This document shows, piece by piece, positions 11,195 through 48,636 of a DNA stretch of 50,306 nt. Origin of the DNA: Minisyncoccota bacterium (lineage in GTDB: Bacteria > Patescibacteriota > Minisyncoccia > Phycocordibacterales > CAIZLB01); NCBI GenBank assembly GCA_031973395.1, contig DALYDD010000001.1:10894-61199 (forward strand), read 5' to 3'. The notes under the pieces were generated by a model. That model ran no database searches, had not been told where the DNA came from, and saw nothing but the letters and a program-made list of their open reading frames with translations. Position numbers and translations under genes: made by a program. The stretch's first letter is position 1; the number at the start of each line of letters is the position of its first letter.

Positions 11195-11491
11195 ATGAAA
11201 GTAACACCACTCGTTGCCCTCACCATCGCAACACTTACCGCCGACGCACTCGCCAAACAGACCAGGGTCTCAGAACGGTTTGCCGTTCCTGAGTTCACCA
11301 GCCTCATGAGAGACGCCAACCTCCCGACCCTGTTCATGCGGGAAGCCAGGATCTGCTACTTCGTCACCATCGAAGGCAAAGTCATGTGTGCGACCAAAGC
11401 CGACGGCCAGTGGGCCTGGAAAGTTGAGGAAGTCTCACCGACCACCAGGATAGCGAAAGCTGCAGGGGCCTACATCGCCGCCCATCCGTAG
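11195..11491 (+). CDS. small secreted hypothetical protein (cassette 1)
   Basis: ATG at 11195 gives a Sec-type signal peptide MKVTPLVALTIATLTADALA. GC-rich relative to neighbours. The track ORF starts further upstream at 11108. Confidence 0.55.
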   Translation: MKVTPLVALTIATLTADALAKQTRVSERFAVPEFTSLMRDANLPTLFMREARICYFVTIEGKVMCATKADGQWAWKVEEVSPTTRIAKAAGAYIAAHP

Positions 11492-14432: not shown

Positions 14433-14450
14433 GATCTCAGCAAATCACTA

Positions 14451-14480
14451 AAAACCTCCCTGAAGCCCAGGGAGGTTTTT
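14451..14480 (+). terminator. intrinsic terminator after typA
   Basis: CCTCCCTG (14455-14462) / CAGGGAGG (14468-14475), followed by TTTTT. Confidence 0.8.
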
Positions 14481-14560
14481 AGTTATCCACAGCCCTCCTC
14501 GCATCCAGGAGGATTTCTTCATCTTTATTTCATCTACAATTGTGTATAAATAATGCCAAT

Positions 14561-25654: not shown

Positions 25655-25703
25655 TTGTATTTAAATAGATAATACCACAGTTCCACCGTCCCATCACTCT
25701 ACA

Positions 25704-25734
25704 GAAAAACACCCATATGAGATGGGTGTTTTTC
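25704..25734 (-). terminator. intrinsic (bidirectional) terminator after tRNA-Asp
   Basis: ACACCCAT (25709-25716) / ATGGGTGT (25722-25729), flanked by an A-run and a T-run. Confidence 0.6.
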
Positions 25735-25739
25735 TTTTG

Positions 25740-25811: not shown

Positions 25812-26012
25812 ATTTTATTTTTGCTTCCCCACCCTCTTTCTGGCTAGAAATAACGGTGATGTGAGACCATTATACATAAAATCATATATTTTCAAAGAGT
25901 CCGACCGTGCAAACTGTAGCCTAAAAAGTAAAGCAAAAGCCGCCGATCCCCACCCTCTCACACATAATGTGAGGGTGAAGCTCGGCGGCTGGGTGCAATA
26001 GTAGGTTTCAAA

Positions 26013-26870: not shown

Positions 26871-26930
26871 GTGGTATTTTTATAACATAAACTAGGCCTA
26901 AAATAAAGCCTCAGCCGGCTTTGCCGCTCA

Positions 26931-27026
26931 AATAATACATAAGAGAAAATCCTTTGCCTCCGCAGGTTGATAGGGTCACCCTAATCGAAACCGAGGACAG
27001 CAAAGGATTTTCTCTTATGTATTATT
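26931..27026 (+). repeat. extended-hairpin element H1 (conserved core, private 26-bp arms)
   Basis: 26931-26956 is the perfect reverse complement of 27001-27026. The core 26957-27000 is shared with 27210-27264 and 37114-37168. Confidence 0.75.
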
Positions 27027-27100
27027 TGGTTGCGGGGCCAAGAATTGCACTTGGTCCTCAAGGTTATGAGCCTTGCATGCAACTGTTACACCTCCCCGCA
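27027..27100 (-). tRNA. atypical tRNA-Met-like gene (CAU), CCA encoded
   Basis: Acceptor TGCGGGG/CCCCGCA, then A and CCA. Anticodon arm CAAGG-CTCATAA-CCTTG, T arm CCAAG-TGCAATT-CTTGG. The D loop AACAGTT lacks GG. Confidence 0.6.
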
Positions 27101-27190
27101 GATTGCATTACTTCATCAACTTTAGTTAAAATCGAGTGAGTAGCATATATTCTCTACATTTCCGGCACAAAGTCAAGAGTGGTTTTTTGA

Positions 27191-27283
27191 AAAAATTATA
27201 ATCACTTCTGAAGTGCCTCCGCAGGTCGATCAAGTAACCCTAATCGAAACCGAGGACAGTACGAAGAAGTGATTATAATTTTT
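27191..27283 (+). repeat. extended-hairpin element H2
   Basis: 27191-27209 is the perfect reverse complement of 27265-27283. The 55-nt core differs from the H3 core at only 4 positions. Confidence 0.75.
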
Positions 27284-28007
27284 ATATAAAATAAAACTCC
27301 TCGAAAACCCTTCGATAATAATCAATCACTTTTCGAGCTTCGGTATAAGAAAGCTCATAAGCGGAACCTTCATGGGCAATGGTATTTCGAATCTTGTGTC
27401 CTTTCCAAGCTTCATCAAGCGTAGAGAAGAAAGATCGATCCGCAGATTTTAATTTTTCGCCTAAATCTTTACCGGGCAAACCCATTTGCTCCAACATATT
27501 AAATAAAACGATATCTGCCTCAAGAATTGCCAAGCGCCAATCTGCAGGATTTGCAGAATTAATTTTTTGTTCAATATCGAGCCATTGTTCATTTCCACCC
27601 TGTGCCGTTGGTCCATGTATACCCGCACCTGCTCCAGCCAAAGACGGCCCACTCACACCAGGTGGAGCAAACACTGGTGCACGCGCCGCATACCAAGCCT
27701 CAATGATTTGTTTTCGTCTGAGTGAAGCATATGAAATAAGGACGATGAAGAGTAGAGAAATAAAAATAGCAAAGAAAGTATACATAGTGAATACTTTGGC
27801 AACAAAACCAATGAAAGCCTCTTTGAATCGACCTTCACCAGAAAATATTCCTGTATCGACATTGAATGCTCCGAGTACCGCAGGCAAAACCACCAAAGCA
27901 AGCAAGACAAATACGCCCGCCCAAACAACAATGTCTTTTTCAAGAGAGCTTCCCGCGGGAGCGGGTGCCGCTGGTTTTTTGCCTTTATCTGATGGTTTAT
28001 CTGCCAT
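27282..28007 (-). CDS. membrane protein with C-terminal HEPN-like (R-x4-H) helical domain
   Basis: Two TM helices, a Gly/Ala/Pro linker, then ...WKGHKIRNTIAHEGSAYELSYTEARKVIDYYRRVF. ATG at 28007 preferred; the track ORF starts at 28040. Confidence 0.6.
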   Translation of the reverse strand: MADKPSDKGKKPAAPAPAGSSLEKDIVVWAGVFVLLALVVLPAVLGAFNVDTGIFSGEGRFKEAFIGFVAKVFTMYTFFAIFISLLFIVLISYASLRRKQIIEAWYAARAPVFAPPGVSGPSLAGAGAGIHGPTAQGGNEQWLDIEQKINSANPADWRLAILEADIVLFNMLEQMGLPGKDLGEKLKSADRSFFSTLDEAWKGHKIRNTIAHEGSAYELSYTEARKVIDYYRRVFEEFYFI

Positions 28008-28064
28008 AAATATAGATCCATTATACACCTTCACGGGCACGCGTCGCCACTATCGGCACAAAGC

Positions 28065-36364: not shown

Positions 36365-36404
36365 AAAATAAAACAGCGCACCGTTAAGTGCACTGTTTTA
36401 TTTT
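36365..36404 (-). terminator. intrinsic terminator after the first pilin gene
   Basis: AAACAGCGCAC / GTGCACTGTTT, 10 of 11 pairs, extended by A/T pairs and followed on the minus strand by a T-run. Confidence 0.7.
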
Positions 36405-37094: not shown

Positions 37095-37187
37095 AAAAAT
37101 AAAAACAACCTCTTCGTGCTGTCCTCGGTTTCGATAAAGGTTACTTAATCGACCTGCGGAGGCACTTCAGAGGTTGTTTTTATTTTT
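37095..37187 (-). repeat. extended-hairpin element H3 (core inverted relative to H1/H2)
   Basis: 37095-37113 is the perfect reverse complement of 37169-37187. The core 37114-37168 is the reverse complement of the H2 core. The arm overlaps the pilC stop codon by 1 nt. Confidence 0.75.
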
Positions 37188-38392
37188 TAGAAGCTGGCAG
37201 AAATATTGTAAATAGGAATCAAAACTGATGCGAGGAGAACACCTACTCCCAAACCAAGAAGCACGATCATGGCAGGTTCAATCAAATCAACCAAAGTGTC
37301 TACGGCCTGCATTACTTCTCGCTGATAGAATTTCGCCAATGTCTTCAAAATATTTCCGAGTTCACCGGATTCTTCACCAATTTTCATCATTTGAATCATG
37401 ATACCTGGAATTTCGGGATACTTTGACATCGCATCAGAGAGCGACATACCACCTTTTACATCATCGAGACTTTTTATAATAATATCTTCGAAAATTTTAT
37501 TATCAACAACGGTCGAAGTGAGCTCCATCGATTTGATGACAGGGACACCGCTCGAAAGCATGGTATTGAAGTTATCTGCAATACGTGAGAGGTATAGTTT
37601 TCTAAACAAATTTCCAATATAAGGGAAATGGATCTTGAAGCTCGAAATAGCGTATTTACCTTGGTCTGTAAAGCTATATCTCCAGAGAACGAAGCCGAGA
37701 CCAATCAAGACAATGAGCATTGGAACCCACCAATTAACCATGAAATTACTGAGACCGATAACGATTTTTGTATAGATCGGTATTTCTTGTCCACCATCGA
37801 CGAGAATCTTGCTGATCTTTGGAATAACCACGGTAAGCATAAGGGTCATCACCGCAACGAAGGTAAAGATAACGAAGGCGGGATAGATCAAAGAGTTCTT
37901 TACCTTGCTCGTAACCTCGTAGTTTCGATCCAAATAATCTGCAAGAAATTGGAATGTCTCATCGAGTTTTCCGGATTCTTCTCCGGCTTTGACCATATTC
38001 ACATAGAAGTTTGAAAAAACTTTTGGATGCTTTGCAAGCGCCGCTGAAATCGCACTACCCCCTTGGATATCATCAGAAACTTGTGTCAAAACTATACGAA
38101 GAGGCTTATTTTCAGCTTCAGTTGAGAGTAGGCGAAAAATTCGAAGCGCCGATACCTGAGAAGAAAACAAAGTGGCCATCTGTCTCGAGAGAATCACCAC
38201 ATCCTTCTGCTTTACTCGCTGAAAAAGCCCAAGATCTTTGTTCAAAATCCCCACATCATCTGCAGGATGGATTGAGACCAATGTTAGATTTCTACGCTGA
38301 AGCGAGTTAACAGCAATATCTATAGTTTGTGCATCAATAGACCCATCTTCTTGGACACCGGACTGATTAACGACTTTATATTTGAATAACAT
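37187..38392 (-). CDS. pilC: type IV pilus platform protein PilC (GspF family)
   Basis: Two T2SSF repeats (..MVKAGEESGKLDE.. and ..MMKIGEESGELGN..) and three TM segments. Confidence 0.92.
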   Translation of the reverse strand: MLFKYKVVNQSGVQEDGSIDAQTIDIAVNSLQRRNLTLVSIHPADDVGILNKDLGLFQRVKQKDVVILSRQMATLFSSQVSALRIFRLLSTEAENKPLRIVLTQVSDDIQGGSAISAALAKHPKVFSNFYVNMVKAGEESGKLDETFQFLADYLDRNYEVTSKVKNSLIYPAFVIFTFVAVMTLMLTVVIPKISKILVDGGQEIPIYTKIVIGLSNFMVNWWVPMLIVLIGLGFVLWRYSFTDQGKYAISSFKIHFPYIGNLFRKLYLSRIADNFNTMLSSGVPVIKSMELTSTVVDNKIFEDIIIKSLDDVKGGMSLSDAMSKYPEIPGIMIQMMKIGEESGELGNILKTLAKFYQREVMQAVDTLVDLIEPAMIVLLGLGVGVLLASVLIPIYNISASF

Positions 38393-47090: not shown

Positions 47091-47184
47091 GGAGACGTGT
47101 CAGAGCGGTCGAATGTGCCTCTTTGCTAAAGAGGTAGGCTGCCTTAAAACGGCCTCGAGGGTTCGAATCCCTCCGTCTCCGCCA
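47091..47184 (+). tRNA. tRNA-Ser (GCU), class II, CCA encoded
   Basis: Acceptor GGAGACG/CGTCTCC, anticodon arm CCTCT-TTGCTAA-AGAGG, long variable arm, T arm GAGGG-TTCGAAT-CCCTC. Confidence 0.93.
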
Positions 47185-47185
47185 C

Positions 47186-47225
47186 AAAATAAAATGACCT
47201 GCACTGCTGCAGGTCATTTTATTTT
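47186..47225 (+). terminator. intrinsic terminator after tRNA-Ser
   Basis: GACCTGCA / TGCAGGTC stem extended by A/T pairs, with loop CTGC and a T-run. Confidence 0.8.
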
Positions 47226-47358
47226 GTCTCGAGAGATGGATGTATGAGAAAGGCGGAAGAGATGCCGAGCCAGCAGGCGAGGCTCTGAGCCGGGGTCGCG
47301 AAAATTTCTGAGCGACGGCGAGGAAATTATTCGTGACCGAAGACCGATGTCTCCGCCA
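47222..47358 (+). repeat. GC-rich structured element A1
   Basis: About 135 nt, nearly identical to 49728-49863. Foldable as a three-way junction. Ends in GTCTCCGCCA, identical to the tRNA-Ser 3' end. Confidence 0.7.
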
Positions 47359-48301: not shown

Positions 48302-48636
48302 CGACCCGCATACCACGGCTTCGCGCCAAGAAAAGCGCCAATATATCCTTACAGGACCTCGAAACCCTGGTACTTAACCCACCTGCTCCGCAAAATTTAA
48401 ATACCCCGGCTTCCCTGCCGCGGTATTTAAATTTCTGAGATGAAGGGTGAGAAAGCCGGACGAAGTTGCGCAATGAGCCGGCATCGTGTAACAATTGCGA
48501 CAACACCCTATCGGCGAAGTGCAACAAGGAGGCGGGGTCGACGGGCTTTTTGCGAAGCAAAAAGAACCGGTGACCGAATCCCTCTGTACTAAGTTCAAAA
48601 AGAAGCGCAACACTTTCTTTACTTTCTTTTAAGATC
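48302..48636 (+). repeat. composite GC-rich non-coding block A3, related to A1/A2
   Basis: Starts with a copy of the A 3' end (..CGCGCCAAGAAAA). Contains a 13-bp perfect hairpin (48393-48405/48422-48434), TTTCTGAG, and a GGGGTCG...GTGACCGAA helix as in A1. Confidence 0.6.

What the first reader, a model, noticed from the sequence alone, without database searches (positions are those of the whole stretch)
26931..27283. Family of roughly 95-nt extended hairpins: conserved 50-nt core, unrelated but perfectly complementary arms (H1, H2; H3 at 37095-37187)
The three cores align almost base for base. H1 is TTGCCTCCGCAGGTTGATAGGGTCACCCTAATCGAAACCGAGGACAGCAA. H2 is GTGCCTCCGCAGGTCGATCAAGTAACCCTAATCGAAACCGAGGACAGTAC. 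H3 (reverse strand) is GTGCCTCCGCAGGTCGATTAAGTAACCTTTATCGAAACCGAGGACAGCAC. Each core is flanked by private arms that are perfect inverted repeats of 26, 19 and 19 bp with no similarity between copies. The core is itself an imperfect palindrome: CCTC(C)G pairs with CGAGG, there is an internal loop CAGG/AAC, and TCGAT pairs with ATCGA. An ACAG bulge is always retained. Two helices change in a compensatory way. The closing triplet is TTG:CAA in H1, GTG:CAC in H3 and GTG:TAC in H2. The apical stem is GGG:CCT in H1 and AAG:CTT in H3. A conserved interior with variable paired flanks is the reverse of a MITE and points to a functional RNA or ssDNA hairpin. Possibilities include a protein-binding site, a processing or stability element, an uptake-signal pair, or a small element that inserts into terminator loops. 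I cannot match it to any family I know.
Basis: seen in the sequence. Interest (0 to 1): 0.7.

Follow-up and report, generated by a model that had tools for sequence, protein, structure and literature searches.

The report
Conserved cap module in terminator hairpins
Three long hairpins at gene ends in a tiny uncultured (Paceibacteria/CPR) bacterium share a GC-rich irregular helix at their tip. The same helix occupies the same two gene ends in distantly related genomes, so it looks like an old, selected, undescribed signal built into transcription terminators rather than a jumping element.

Summary
Three ~50-nt cores (26956-27000 +, 27215-27259 +, 37119-37163 -) lie inside private, perfectly complementary arms of 29, 19 and 19 nt, and two independent assemblies reproduce them. 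The arms look like this genome's ordinary terminator stems (A-tract, GC-richer top, U-tract), and each hairpin abuts a minus-strand gene end.

The main new result is that the core is not private to this genome. Six related Paceibacteria genomes were compared (neighbouring protein only 55-62% identical). The module recurs there at two orthologous sites: directly 3' of an atypical tRNA-CAU, and directly 3' of a 241-aa HEPN-like membrane-protein gene.

In the sense of the upstream gene it reads 5'-G-UCC-U-C-GG / CC-U-G-C-GGA-3'. That is six pairs, a UxC mismatch, a bulged U and an unpaired G, capped by a variable 9-41-nt tip. Arms are near random between orthologues (42% identity) and the motif is 81% identical.

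The pilC copy (H3) is lineage-specific and flipped. No match was found in Rfam, phages or plasmids.

Best reading: a selected cis-acting recognition module on top of a subset of intrinsic terminators, occasionally copied between terminator palindromes. The partner is unknown, and whether it acts as RNA or DNA is unresolved.

The parts
26929..27028 (-). H1: whole hairpin directly 3' of the atypical tRNA-CAU. Arms are 26929-26957 and 27000-27028, with the core module between them.
   Evidence: An orthologous hairpin with the same module follows the same tRNA in L020, L022, L032 and L027.
26959..26998 (-). H1 invariant motif. On the minus strand, GTCCTCGG lies at 26991-26998 and CCTGCGGA at 26959-26966, flanking a 24-nt cap.
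27191..27283 (-). H2: whole hairpin overlapping the stop codon of the 241-aa gene and lying upstream of the tRNA promoter. The perfect arms are 27191-27209 and 27265-27283.
   Evidence: The orthologous position carries the module in L023, L027 and L033.
27218..27257 (-). H2 invariant motif. On the minus strand, GTCCTCGG lies at 27250-27257 and CCTGCGGA at 27218-27225.
37095..37187 (+). H3: whole hairpin directly after the pilC stop codon. The module reads in the family's sense orientation on the + strand, that is, flipped relative to the minus-strand genes around it.
   Evidence: It is absent downstream of pilC in relatives L010, L011 and L017.
37121..37160 (+). H3 invariant motif: GTCCTCGG at 37121-37128 and CCTGCGGA at 37153-37160.
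27030..27100 (-). Atypical tRNA with anticodon loop CUCAUAA (CAU by my reading). H1 is its 3' hairpin and H2 lies upstream of its promoter.
   Evidence: Rfam tRNA, 50.5 bits. ARAGORN does not call it. It is conserved in all relatives.
27149..27176 (-). Promoter-like site (TTGACT, 16 nt, GAGAAT) between H2 and the tRNA. It shows that H2 ends the upstream transcription unit.
   Evidence: The same TTGAC...TAGAGAATA block is seen in L023 and L027.
27282..28007 (-). Gene for a 241-aa membrane protein with a C-terminal HEPN-like domain. The ORF can be read back to a GTG at 28040. H2 overlaps its stop codon.
   Evidence: (P0121).
37187..38392 (-). pilC (T2SSF family). H3 starts in its stop codon.
47184..47227 (.). 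Example of a plain terminator hairpin in the same genome: 20-nt perfect arms, 4-nt loop, no module. Others lie at 14444-14486, 25703-25735, 36365-36404, 2248-2278 and 48393-48434.

Best explanation
H1-H3 are intrinsic-terminator-type hairpins at the 3' ends of three minus-strand transcription units: an atypical tRNA-CAU, a 241-aa HEPN-like membrane-protein gene, and pilC.

**Anatomy.** The private arms are each terminator's own A-tract/U-tract stem. The shared part is a GC-rich apical module. It forms U-A, C-G, C-G, a UxC mismatch, C-G, a bulged or wobble U, G-C and G-C, with an unpaired G on the 5' side.

**Proposed function.** The module is old and under purifying selection, while the arms and cap turn over. 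I therefore read it as a cis-acting recognition module for a trans factor not yet identified, most simply a protein that binds the 3' hairpin of the transcript. It sits on top of a subset of terminators. There it nucleates the terminator hairpin and marks these 3' ends for a particular fate. Candidate fates are protection, RNase III-type processing of the 19-29-bp perfect stem, or factor-assisted termination.

**Origin of extra copies.** Extra copies arise rarely, when an apex unit of about 66 nt is copied from one terminator palindrome into another. Examples are H3 here and a copy upstream of ligA in relative L033. Because the interior lies between perfect inverted arms, it can also flip, which would account for H3's reversed orientation.

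**What is shown.** The anatomy, the positions at gene ends, the orthologous conservation, the plain terminators at empty sites, and the absence from known families.

**What is inferred.** Termination itself, a protein partner, action at the RNA level, and the copy and flip mechanisms.
For: 1. **Position.** Every copy abuts a gene end. H1 starts at the tRNA's CCA end. H2 and H3 start in or next to stop codons. A promoter-like site follows H2.
2. **The arms resemble the genome's plain terminators.** Six other hairpins in the window have 14-20-nt arms (83-100% complementary, three of them perfect), A-rich on the 5' side and T-rich on the 3' side, with 3-7-nt loops. All 11 family members have a U-rich run after the GC-rich upper stem (sequences).
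3. **Orthology at the tRNA site.** The module follows the same tRNA in L020, L022, L032 and L027.
4. **Orthology at the 241-aa gene site.** The module follows the homologous gene in L023, L027 and L033. These genomes share only 53-83% identity in that protein and fall into four deep lineages. Gene order is conserved.
5. **Selection.** At the tRNA site the 16-nt motif is 81% identical between genomes, while the adjacent arm is 42% identical. L022 and L032 have identical motifs but unrelated 26-27-nt perfect arms.
6. **Structure.** 66 of 66 cells of the six-pair helix are paired. One pair switches G-C to A-U in three sequences. L020's three substitutions are all U.G-compatible. Sliding the partners drops pairing to 36-65%.
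7. **The irregularities persist.** The outer arms are essentially perfect Watson-Crick: 262 W-C pairs and 8 G.U, most of which are the conserved U.G next to the unpaired G.
8. **Empty sites hold plain terminators.** L023 and L033 at the tRNA site; L011 at the pilC site.
9. **The family is small.** Covariance model R2 finds only the 11 known members in the window plus about 200 kb of relatives' DNA.
Against: - No transcript data exist, so termination and the transcribed strand are inferred.
- No partner protein was identified. The window holds no obvious candidate apart from the weakly HEPN-like neighbour.
- Strand-specific signals are mixed. L020 and the H2 cap fold much better in the gene-sense orientation through G.U pairs. 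The T-for-C change in H1 and a mismatch in the L033 arm favour the opposite strand.
- H3 is in the opposite orientation, which a strictly strand-specific RNA function does not predict.
- Copies within one genome share their cap (3 in the window, 2 in L033). That needs copying or gene conversion, which is behaviour partly like a mobile element.
- Only 11 members from about 4 independent sites are known. The motif is nearly invariant, so covariation is statistically weak.
Confidence: 0.5

Rival explanations
1. A small non-autonomous mobile element. A cassette of about 50-66 nt inserts into the apical loop of pre-existing terminator hairpins in either orientation. It would be moved by an enzyme encoded elsewhere, such as a single-strand-DNA (HUH-type) transposase or a loop-specific DDE transposase.
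For: - H1-H3 are 91% identical on average over the 54 aligned core columns, inside unrelated arms.
- H3 is absent from the orthologous pilC site of relatives and is inverted.
Removing the unit and one repeat leaves ordinary tetraloop hairpins: CTTC-TGAA-GAAG and CCTC-TGAA-GAGG.
- L033 also has two near-identical copies at different sites.
- Copies within one genome share caps that differ between genomes.
Against: - Two of the three sites are occupied orthologously across four deep lineages, with the motif conserved far above the flanks. Selfish insertions should decay neutrally.
- Copy density in the sampled DNA is low: 11 copies in roughly 250 kb.
- There are no shared terminal inverted repeats.
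- No direct repeat is seen at H1 or in L033.
- No transposase was found in the window. Pfam scans covered 30 of the 50 ORFs, and most of the rest were identified by synteny with annotated relatives' loci rather than scanned.
- Exact-pattern scans of the reference genomes, JGI metagenomes and IMG/VR returned only chance hits. Those patterns were, however, too strict for the shorter variants.
Confidence: 0.2
2. A DNA-level signal. The irregular hairpin would be extruded as a cruciform or formed on single-stranded DNA. It would be the binding or cleavage site of a DNA protein: REP/RAYT-like, a recombinase, or a replication or nucleoid factor. Its location in terminators would be incidental.
For: - The arms are almost purely Watson-Crick with virtually no G.U, as expected if both strands must fold or if the palindrome is homogenised at the DNA level.
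- Fold energies of the two strands are similar and the strand signals are mixed.
- H3 works equally well in this model despite its orientation.
- REP elements are likewise extragenic imperfect palindromes at gene ends.
Against: - No RAYT, recombinase or integrase gene was found in the window.
- There is no conserved GTAG-type 5' tetranucleotide and no inverted-pair (BIME/REPIN) arrangement.
- In L020 the module pairs only on the gene-sense strand (-32.5 versus -18.7 kcal/mol).
- 10 of 11 copies share one orientation relative to transcription.
- Perfect arms are also a property of the plain terminators, so they are not specific to the module.
Confidence: 0.15
3. Nothing beyond a terminator. The module is only a very stable GC clamp. 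It is kept similar by slow divergence and by gene conversion between neighbouring palindromes (H1 and H2 are 260 bp apart), and has no specific partner.
For: - All copies fit the sequence definition of intrinsic terminators.
- H1 and H2 are adjacent and in direct orientation.
- The plain hairpin at 48393-48434 has a loosely similar top: ACC-C-CGG...CCG-C-GGU.
Against: - Terminator stems normally keep their structure and not their sequence. Here 8 + 8 nt, a specific mismatch and specific bulges survive divergence that randomised the arms.
- Gene conversion cannot act between genomes.
- Most terminators in the same genomes lack the module.
Confidence: 0.1

Closest known systems
Intrinsic (Rho-independent) terminators, especially bidirectional A-tract/U-tract ones
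   Same: A hairpin with a GC-rich top followed by a U-run and preceded by the complementary A-run. It sits directly after stop codons or tRNA 3' ends. Plain versions occupy the same sites in relatives.
   Different: Ordinary terminators conserve shape and not sequence. Here a specific irregular helix (an unpaired G, a UxC mismatch, a bulged U) is conserved across deep lineages and repeated within a genome. The stems are unusually long (19-29 bp) and perfect.
REP/BIME elements with RAYT transposases (REPINs)
   Same: Extragenic imperfect palindromes at gene 3' ends, repeated within a genome, specific to a species or lineage, found in both orientations, and known to affect mRNA stability and termination.
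   Different: In REPs the conserved sequence is the paired arms, and copies often form inverted doublets. Here the conserved part is the interior and the long arms are private. No GTAG-type 5' tetranucleotide and no RAYT gene were seen, and copy number appears low.
Phage T7 RNase III processing signals (R0.3, R1.1 and others)
   Same: A family of homologous intergenic hairpins of about two helical turns, interrupted by a conserved internal irregularity. They define and protect the 3' ends of upstream messages.
   Different: T7 sites are a family within one phage genome and are not embedded in A/U-tract terminators. RNase III cleavage was not tested here and no sequence similarity exists.
MITEs and Correia-type elements
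   Same: Short, non-coding, repeated, hairpin-forming and intergenic. H3 shows presence/absence between lineages.
   Different: The architecture is the opposite (conserved interior, private arms). There are no shared TIRs and no consistent target duplication. The sites are conserved orthologously.
Integron attC sites
   Same: Found at the 3' ends of genes. They are recognised as a hairpin through conserved irregularities (extrahelical bases) and carry a variable terminal structure.
   Different: There are no R''/R' core sites (GTTRRRY), no integrase and no cassette array. The neighbouring genes are syntenic housekeeping genes.

Membership tests
Intrinsic terminator | A GC-rich hairpin immediately followed by a U-rich tract | tested here: met
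   All 11 members have a U-rich run after the GC-rich upper stem (sequences and folds). The simple scanner cannot see them because its loop limit is 8 nt.
Intrinsic terminator | Located at the 3' end of a transcription unit | tested here: met
   H1 abuts the tRNA 3' end. H2 and H3 overlap stop codons. A promoter-like site follows H2.
Intrinsic terminator | Transcripts actually end there | not testable with these tools
   Needs Term-seq or 3' RACE on a metatranscriptome or co-culture.
MITE | Terminal inverted repeats shared by all copies | tested here: not met
   The arms are private to each copy.
MITE | Target-site duplication flanking each copy | tested here: inconclusive
   A 4-nt GAAG/CTTC direct repeat flanks the H2 and H3 unit only. 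None is seen at H1 or in L033, and palindromic flanks hide short duplications.
REP/RAYT | A repeated extragenic imperfect palindrome of 20-40 nt | tested here: met
   The core is a 40-54-nt imperfect palindrome, intergenic, with 3 copies in 50 kb.
REP/RAYT | A conserved 5' GTAG-like tetranucleotide next to the palindrome | tested here: not met
   The 5' flanks are GCUG, CUAAG or CUAGG (alignment).
REP/RAYT | A RAYT (Y1 transposase) gene in the genome | not testable with these tools
   None was found among the window ORFs scanned. The rest of the genome is not available.
Integron attC | R''/R' core sites (RYYYAAC...GTTRRRY) and a nearby integrase | tested here: not met
   No such boxes at the hairpin bases. 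No integrase in the window.
Any Rfam 15 family | A score at or near a family's gathering threshold | tested here: not met
   Only tRNAs, and group I introns in relatives, reach threshold. The hairpins give only sub-threshold microRNA- or sRNA-like chance hits.
DNA uptake sequence | A short motif strongly over-represented genome-wide, including inside genes | tested here: not met
   GTCCTCGG and CCTGCGGA occur essentially only in the hairpins. Counts elsewhere are close to chance.
Archaeal-type bulge-helix-bulge motif | Two 3-nt bulges on opposite strands separated by a 4-bp helix | tested here: not met
   The alternative pairing CCUC/GAGG with 4-nt bulges exists only in 'type B' copies, and only with the right handedness on the antisense strand. 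It cannot form in type A, which has GGAA.
T7-type RNase III site | About 20 bp of dsRNA with an internal irregularity, cleaved by RNase III | not testable with these tools
   The structural prerequisite is present: 19-29-bp perfect stems plus an irregular helix. Cleavage is untested.

The most novel reading that the evidence does not exclude
The module is the recognition site of an unknown factor specific to this lineage. It also behaves as an 'apex cassette'. It would be exchanged and flipped between otherwise unrelated terminator palindromes, by recombination or template switching that uses the palindromic arms or 4-7-nt microhomology (TCTTC...CTTCAGA). That would be a way of spreading a cis-signal that needs neither terminal repeats nor its own transposase. 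A bolder sub-variant links it functionally to the neighbouring HEPN-like membrane protein and the atypical tRNA-CAU, which it flanks in every genome examined.
Probability: 0.2. Interest if true: 0.75.

Novelty: new variant of a known kind. Interest (0 to 1): 0.55.

Why it matters
CPR/Patescibacteria have very small genomes, and almost nothing is known about their RNA biology or their regulatory signals. A sequence-specific irregular helix that has been conserved on top of particular terminators across deep Paceibacteria lineages implies an undescribed trans-acting factor. That factor would work in 3'-end formation, RNA processing or hairpin-DNA recognition.

The finding also gives a concrete handle for locating that factor. 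A 16-nt motif and a covariance model are now available for phylogenetic profiling and pull-downs.

Finally, it shows a cis-signal being shared between terminators without the hallmarks of a transposon. The very long, perfectly Watson-Crick terminator stems of this lineage are a puzzle in themselves, because they should be RNase III and SbcCD substrates.

Tried and rejected
- I ran exact-pattern scans of the GTDB representative genomes, the JGI metagenomes and IMG/VR.
- Only chance hits came back, in GC-rich coding DNA without arms.
- In hindsight the patterns were too strict, because relatives carry a shorter cap and AT/AU variants.
- Later IMG/VR scans with family-level patterns also gave only chance hits.

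**Searches that found nothing**
- BLAST of the core against phage and plasmid collections.
- Rfam at permissive E-values on the window hairpins and on three relatives' loci.
- A transposase or recombinase among the window ORFs scanned with Pfam (30 of the 50).
- Literature searches for CPR terminator or palindromic elements.

**Ideas considered and dropped after reading the sequences**
- Hammerhead, hairpin, twister or pistol ribozymes: their core motifs are absent.
- SRP RNA domain IV: multi-copy, both orientations, no Rfam hit.
- K-turn: no tandem G.A pairs in position.
- An SD/anti-SD sequestering hairpin: GGAGG is absent from type A.
- Pairing between the motif and the tRNA: GUCCUC is complementary to GAGGAC in the tRNA, but relatives with GAUGAC keep GUCCUC.
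- A 16S h45 mimic (AACCUGCGG): unsupported.

**Other tests**
- Homology between the H2 and H3 arms (14/19 identical). I rejected it because plain terminators match H3 at 10-12 of 19.
- Deciding the RNA strand from G.U versus C.A asymmetry: the result was mixed.

Full report
**1. The observation**

A 45-nt degenerate pattern finds exactly three matches, at 26956-27000 (+), 27215-27259 (+) and 37119-37163 (-), with none expected by chance. Half-patterns with three mismatches, and two covariance models run without filters, find no further copy in the window.

The inverted-repeat scan ranks these three hairpins among the four longest in the window. Their arms are 29 nt (100%), 27 nt (89%, inner 19 perfect) and 19 nt (100%). 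Each folds 6-12 standard deviations better than shuffled sequence, on either strand.

The sequence is not an assembly artefact. Logan contigs from two other sequencing runs carry identical sequence. L019 holds H2, the tRNA and H1. L009 holds pilC and the start of H3, and it breaks inside the repeated core.

**2. Context in the window**

All genes around the hairpins are on the minus strand.
- H1 begins at the CCA end of an atypical tRNA at 27030-27100. Rfam scores it 50.5 bits as tRNA, and ARAGORN does not call it.
- H2 overlaps the stop codon of a 241-aa gene. A promoter-like TTGACT-16-GAGAAT site for that tRNA follows it.
- H3 begins in the pilC stop codon and precedes the pilin gene.

The organism is a Paceibacteria-type member of the Patescibacteria (CPR), judging from the names on the pilC homologues.

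The same window holds six plain hairpins with 14-20-nt arms (83-100% complementary, three of them perfect). They have an A-rich 5' arm, a GC-richer top, a 3-7-nt loop and a T-rich 3' arm, which is the build of a bidirectional intrinsic terminator. The private arms of H1-H3 have exactly this build. H2 and H3 are 14/19 identical in their arms, but unrelated plain terminators match H3 at 10-12 of 19, so the shared build explains the similarity.

**3. The family is wider and older than the window**

Fetching the syntenic loci of relatives through neighbouring proteins was more informative.

*The pilC site.* Downstream of pilC, relatives with 80-84% identical PilC have no module. One of them (L011) has a plain 17-nt-arm hairpin, and the others have none.

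*The tRNA site.* Directly 3' of the orthologous atypical tRNA, four genomes carry a long perfect hairpin. Its interior is a shorter version of the core.
- L022: GUGCUGUCCUCGAUGCUUCGCAUCUGCGGAGGCAC.
- L032: the same, apart from the loop.
- L027 and L020: further variants.
- L023 and L033 have a plain terminator at this site.

*The 241-aa gene site.* Directly 3' of the homologue of this gene, which is the H2 position, L023, L027 and L033 carry a second flavour: (C)UAAGUCCUCGG...CCUGCGGAAUC. L033 has one more copy, upstream of ligA.

*Phylogeny.* In a neighbour-joining tree of the 241-aa protein the genomes fall into four deep lineages, with 53-83% identity. Both sites are occupied in three of the four lineages, so both are probably ancestral. 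The clade that lost the second site has a glycosyltransferase gene inserted there.

*Family size.* Model R2, built from all 11 members, finds nothing else in the window or in about 200 kb of relatives' DNA.

**4. Anatomy of the conserved part**

All members share 5'-G-UCC-U-C-GG-[cap]-CC-U-G-C-GGA-3'.

The helix common to both flavours is U-A, C-G, C-G, a UxC mismatch (UxU in L027, U-A in L020), C-G, a bulged or wobble U, G-C and G-C. An unpaired G lies on the 5' side.

On the 11-sequence alignment all 66 cells of these six pairs are standard pairs.
- One pair switches G-C to A-U in three sequences.
- L020's three changes are all to U.G.
- Sliding the 3' partners by 1-3 columns drops pairing to 36-65%.

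In the window genome the cap is 24 nt. It is shared by H1-H3, as the two L033 copies share theirs, which shows copying or conversion within a genome.

**5. Selection**

At the tRNA site the 16 motif positions are 81% identical between genomes on average. The adjacent 12 arm positions are 42% identical, close to random for this base composition. L022 and L032 have identical motifs and tRNAs but unrelated 26-27-nt perfect arms.

The outer arms of the 11 hairpins contain 262 Watson-Crick pairs and only 8 G.U pairs. Most of those G.U pairs are the conserved U.G next to the unpaired G.

The stems are therefore kept almost perfectly symmetrical, yet the mismatch and bulges of the module persist. I take that as evidence of purifying selection on the irregular helix itself. 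One inference from established knowledge may explain the perfect arms: quasi-palindromes are corrected by intramolecular template switching. This was not tested.

**6. RNA or DNA?**

This is unresolved.
- For the gene-sense RNA: L020 folds at -32.5 kcal/mol against -18.7 for the other strand. The H2 cap forms nine pairs with two G.U only in that sense. Ten of 11 copies share that orientation, although they come from only about four independent sites.
- Against it: H1's T-for-C change and a mismatch in the L033 arm are wobble-compatible only on the other strand. Three type A copies fold slightly better as the reverse complement. H3 is flipped.
- The near absence of G.U in the arms fits a DNA-level constraint or homogenisation, but the plain terminators show the same property.

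**7. How H3 arose**

H2 and H3 share a unit of about 66 nt (TCTTCGTRC...GCACTTCAGA in gene sense) inside unrelated arms. Deleting the unit with one repeat leaves ordinary tetraloop terminators, CTTC-TGAA-GAAG and CCTC-TGAA-GAGG.

That pattern fits three explanations:
- a 4-bp target duplication;
- copying mediated by microhomology;
- the flanks simply being part of the unit.

Three copies cannot separate these. Any sequence between perfect inverted repeats can be inverted by recombination between the arms, so the reversed orientation of H3 does not need a transposase. This too is inference.

**8. Comparison with known systems**

No Rfam family matches. No similar phage or plasmid sequence exists in the collections searched.

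The object works like an intrinsic terminator and meets the sequence criteria for one. It resembles REP elements in location and repetition. It fails REP architecture, because the interior is conserved instead of the arms, and there are no doublets and no GTAG box. No RAYT gene was seen. It fails the definitions of MITE, attC, uptake sequence and bulge-helix-bulge motif; details are in the membership table.

The closest functional analogy is the family of T7 RNase III sites. These are homologous intergenic hairpins with a conserved irregularity that set and protect upstream 3' ends.

**9. Verdict**

The most likely explanation (about 0.5) is a selected cis-acting module, specific to this lineage, on top of a subset of terminators. 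It would be recognised by an unknown factor and is rarely copied between terminator palindromes.

The rivals are a terminator-loop-hopping mobile element (0.2), a DNA-level hairpin site (0.15) and a plain terminator with no added function (0.1).

It is a new variant of a known kind (a conserved structured element embedded in a terminator). It is of moderate to good interest because it points to undescribed RNA or DNA recognition machinery in CPR bacteria and can be tested directly.

Noticed in passing
window 27030-27100 (-): Atypical tRNA. Rfam scores it 50.5 bits as tRNA, but ARAGORN does not call it. By my reading it has anticodon loop CUCAUAA (CAU), a non-canonical T-loop (UGCAAUU instead of UUCGAAU) and an odd D-arm. 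It is almost identical in all seven related genomes and always has a module-bearing hairpin just upstream or just downstream.
   Followed up: partly
window 27282-28007 (-) (ORF readable to 28040): Conserved Paceibacteria protein of 241 aa with no Pfam family. The model (pLDDT 81) shows long N-terminal hydrophobic helices (presumably membrane-spanning) and a C-terminal four-helix domain. An R-N-x-I-A-H (Rx4H) motif is invariant in 38 homologues. There are weak hits to HEPN families (Swt1-HEPN, E 0.009) and to HEPN crystal structures (2hsb and 1wty, probability 0.94-0.97 but E about 0.3). It may be an RNase-like or RNA-binding neighbour of the module.
   Followed up: partly
window 47184-47227, 14444-14486, 25703-25735, 36365-36404, 2248-2278, 48393-48434: The genome's plain terminator hairpins have very long (14-20 nt), nearly perfect Watson-Crick arms and almost no G.U pairs. 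Such dsRNA or palindromic DNA should be a substrate for RNase III and SbcCD. What keeps them perfect is unexplained.
   Followed up: partly
window 48393-48434: The top of this plain hairpin (ACC-C-CGGC...GCCG-C-GGU) loosely mimics the module's build: three pairs, a pyrimidine mismatch, then a GC helix. Neither covariance model scores it.
   Followed up: partly
window 25938-25990: A GC-rich 23-nt-arm imperfect hairpin (AGCCGCCGATCCCCACCCTCTCA...) between the cytidylate-kinase-like gene and tRNA-Asp. It is unlike the A/T-tract terminators, and its function is unknown.
   Followed up: no
L027 5269-5577 and L033 13734-14057 (relatives): Group I introns (Rfam 49-54 bits) next to LAGLIDADG-type ORFs, a few kb downstream of the tRNA locus in relatives. 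The whole-window Rfam gathering scan gave no group I intron hit.
   Followed up: no
L023 7860-7895 (relative): A stray 3' half of the module (GCCCTGCGGAGGCA) inside a small hairpin, about 30 nt after the full module-bearing terminator. It may be a remnant of a second copy.
   Followed up: no
L020, L022, L032 versus window 27100-27282: Three relatives have an 843-937-aa glycosyltransferase gene inserted between the 241-aa gene and the tRNA. In those genomes the module after the 241-aa gene is missing.
   Followed up: partly
L011 about 11245-11290 (relative): The plain hairpin downstream of pilC in this relative has a 12-nt loop that shares the 9-mer ATCAAGTAA with the cap of H2. This is probably chance.
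   Followed up: no
L009 end (3748) = window about 37142: A short-read assembly of the same strain breaks inside the repeated core. Elements like this will fragment CPR assemblies and will be under-represented in contig collections.
   Followed up: yes
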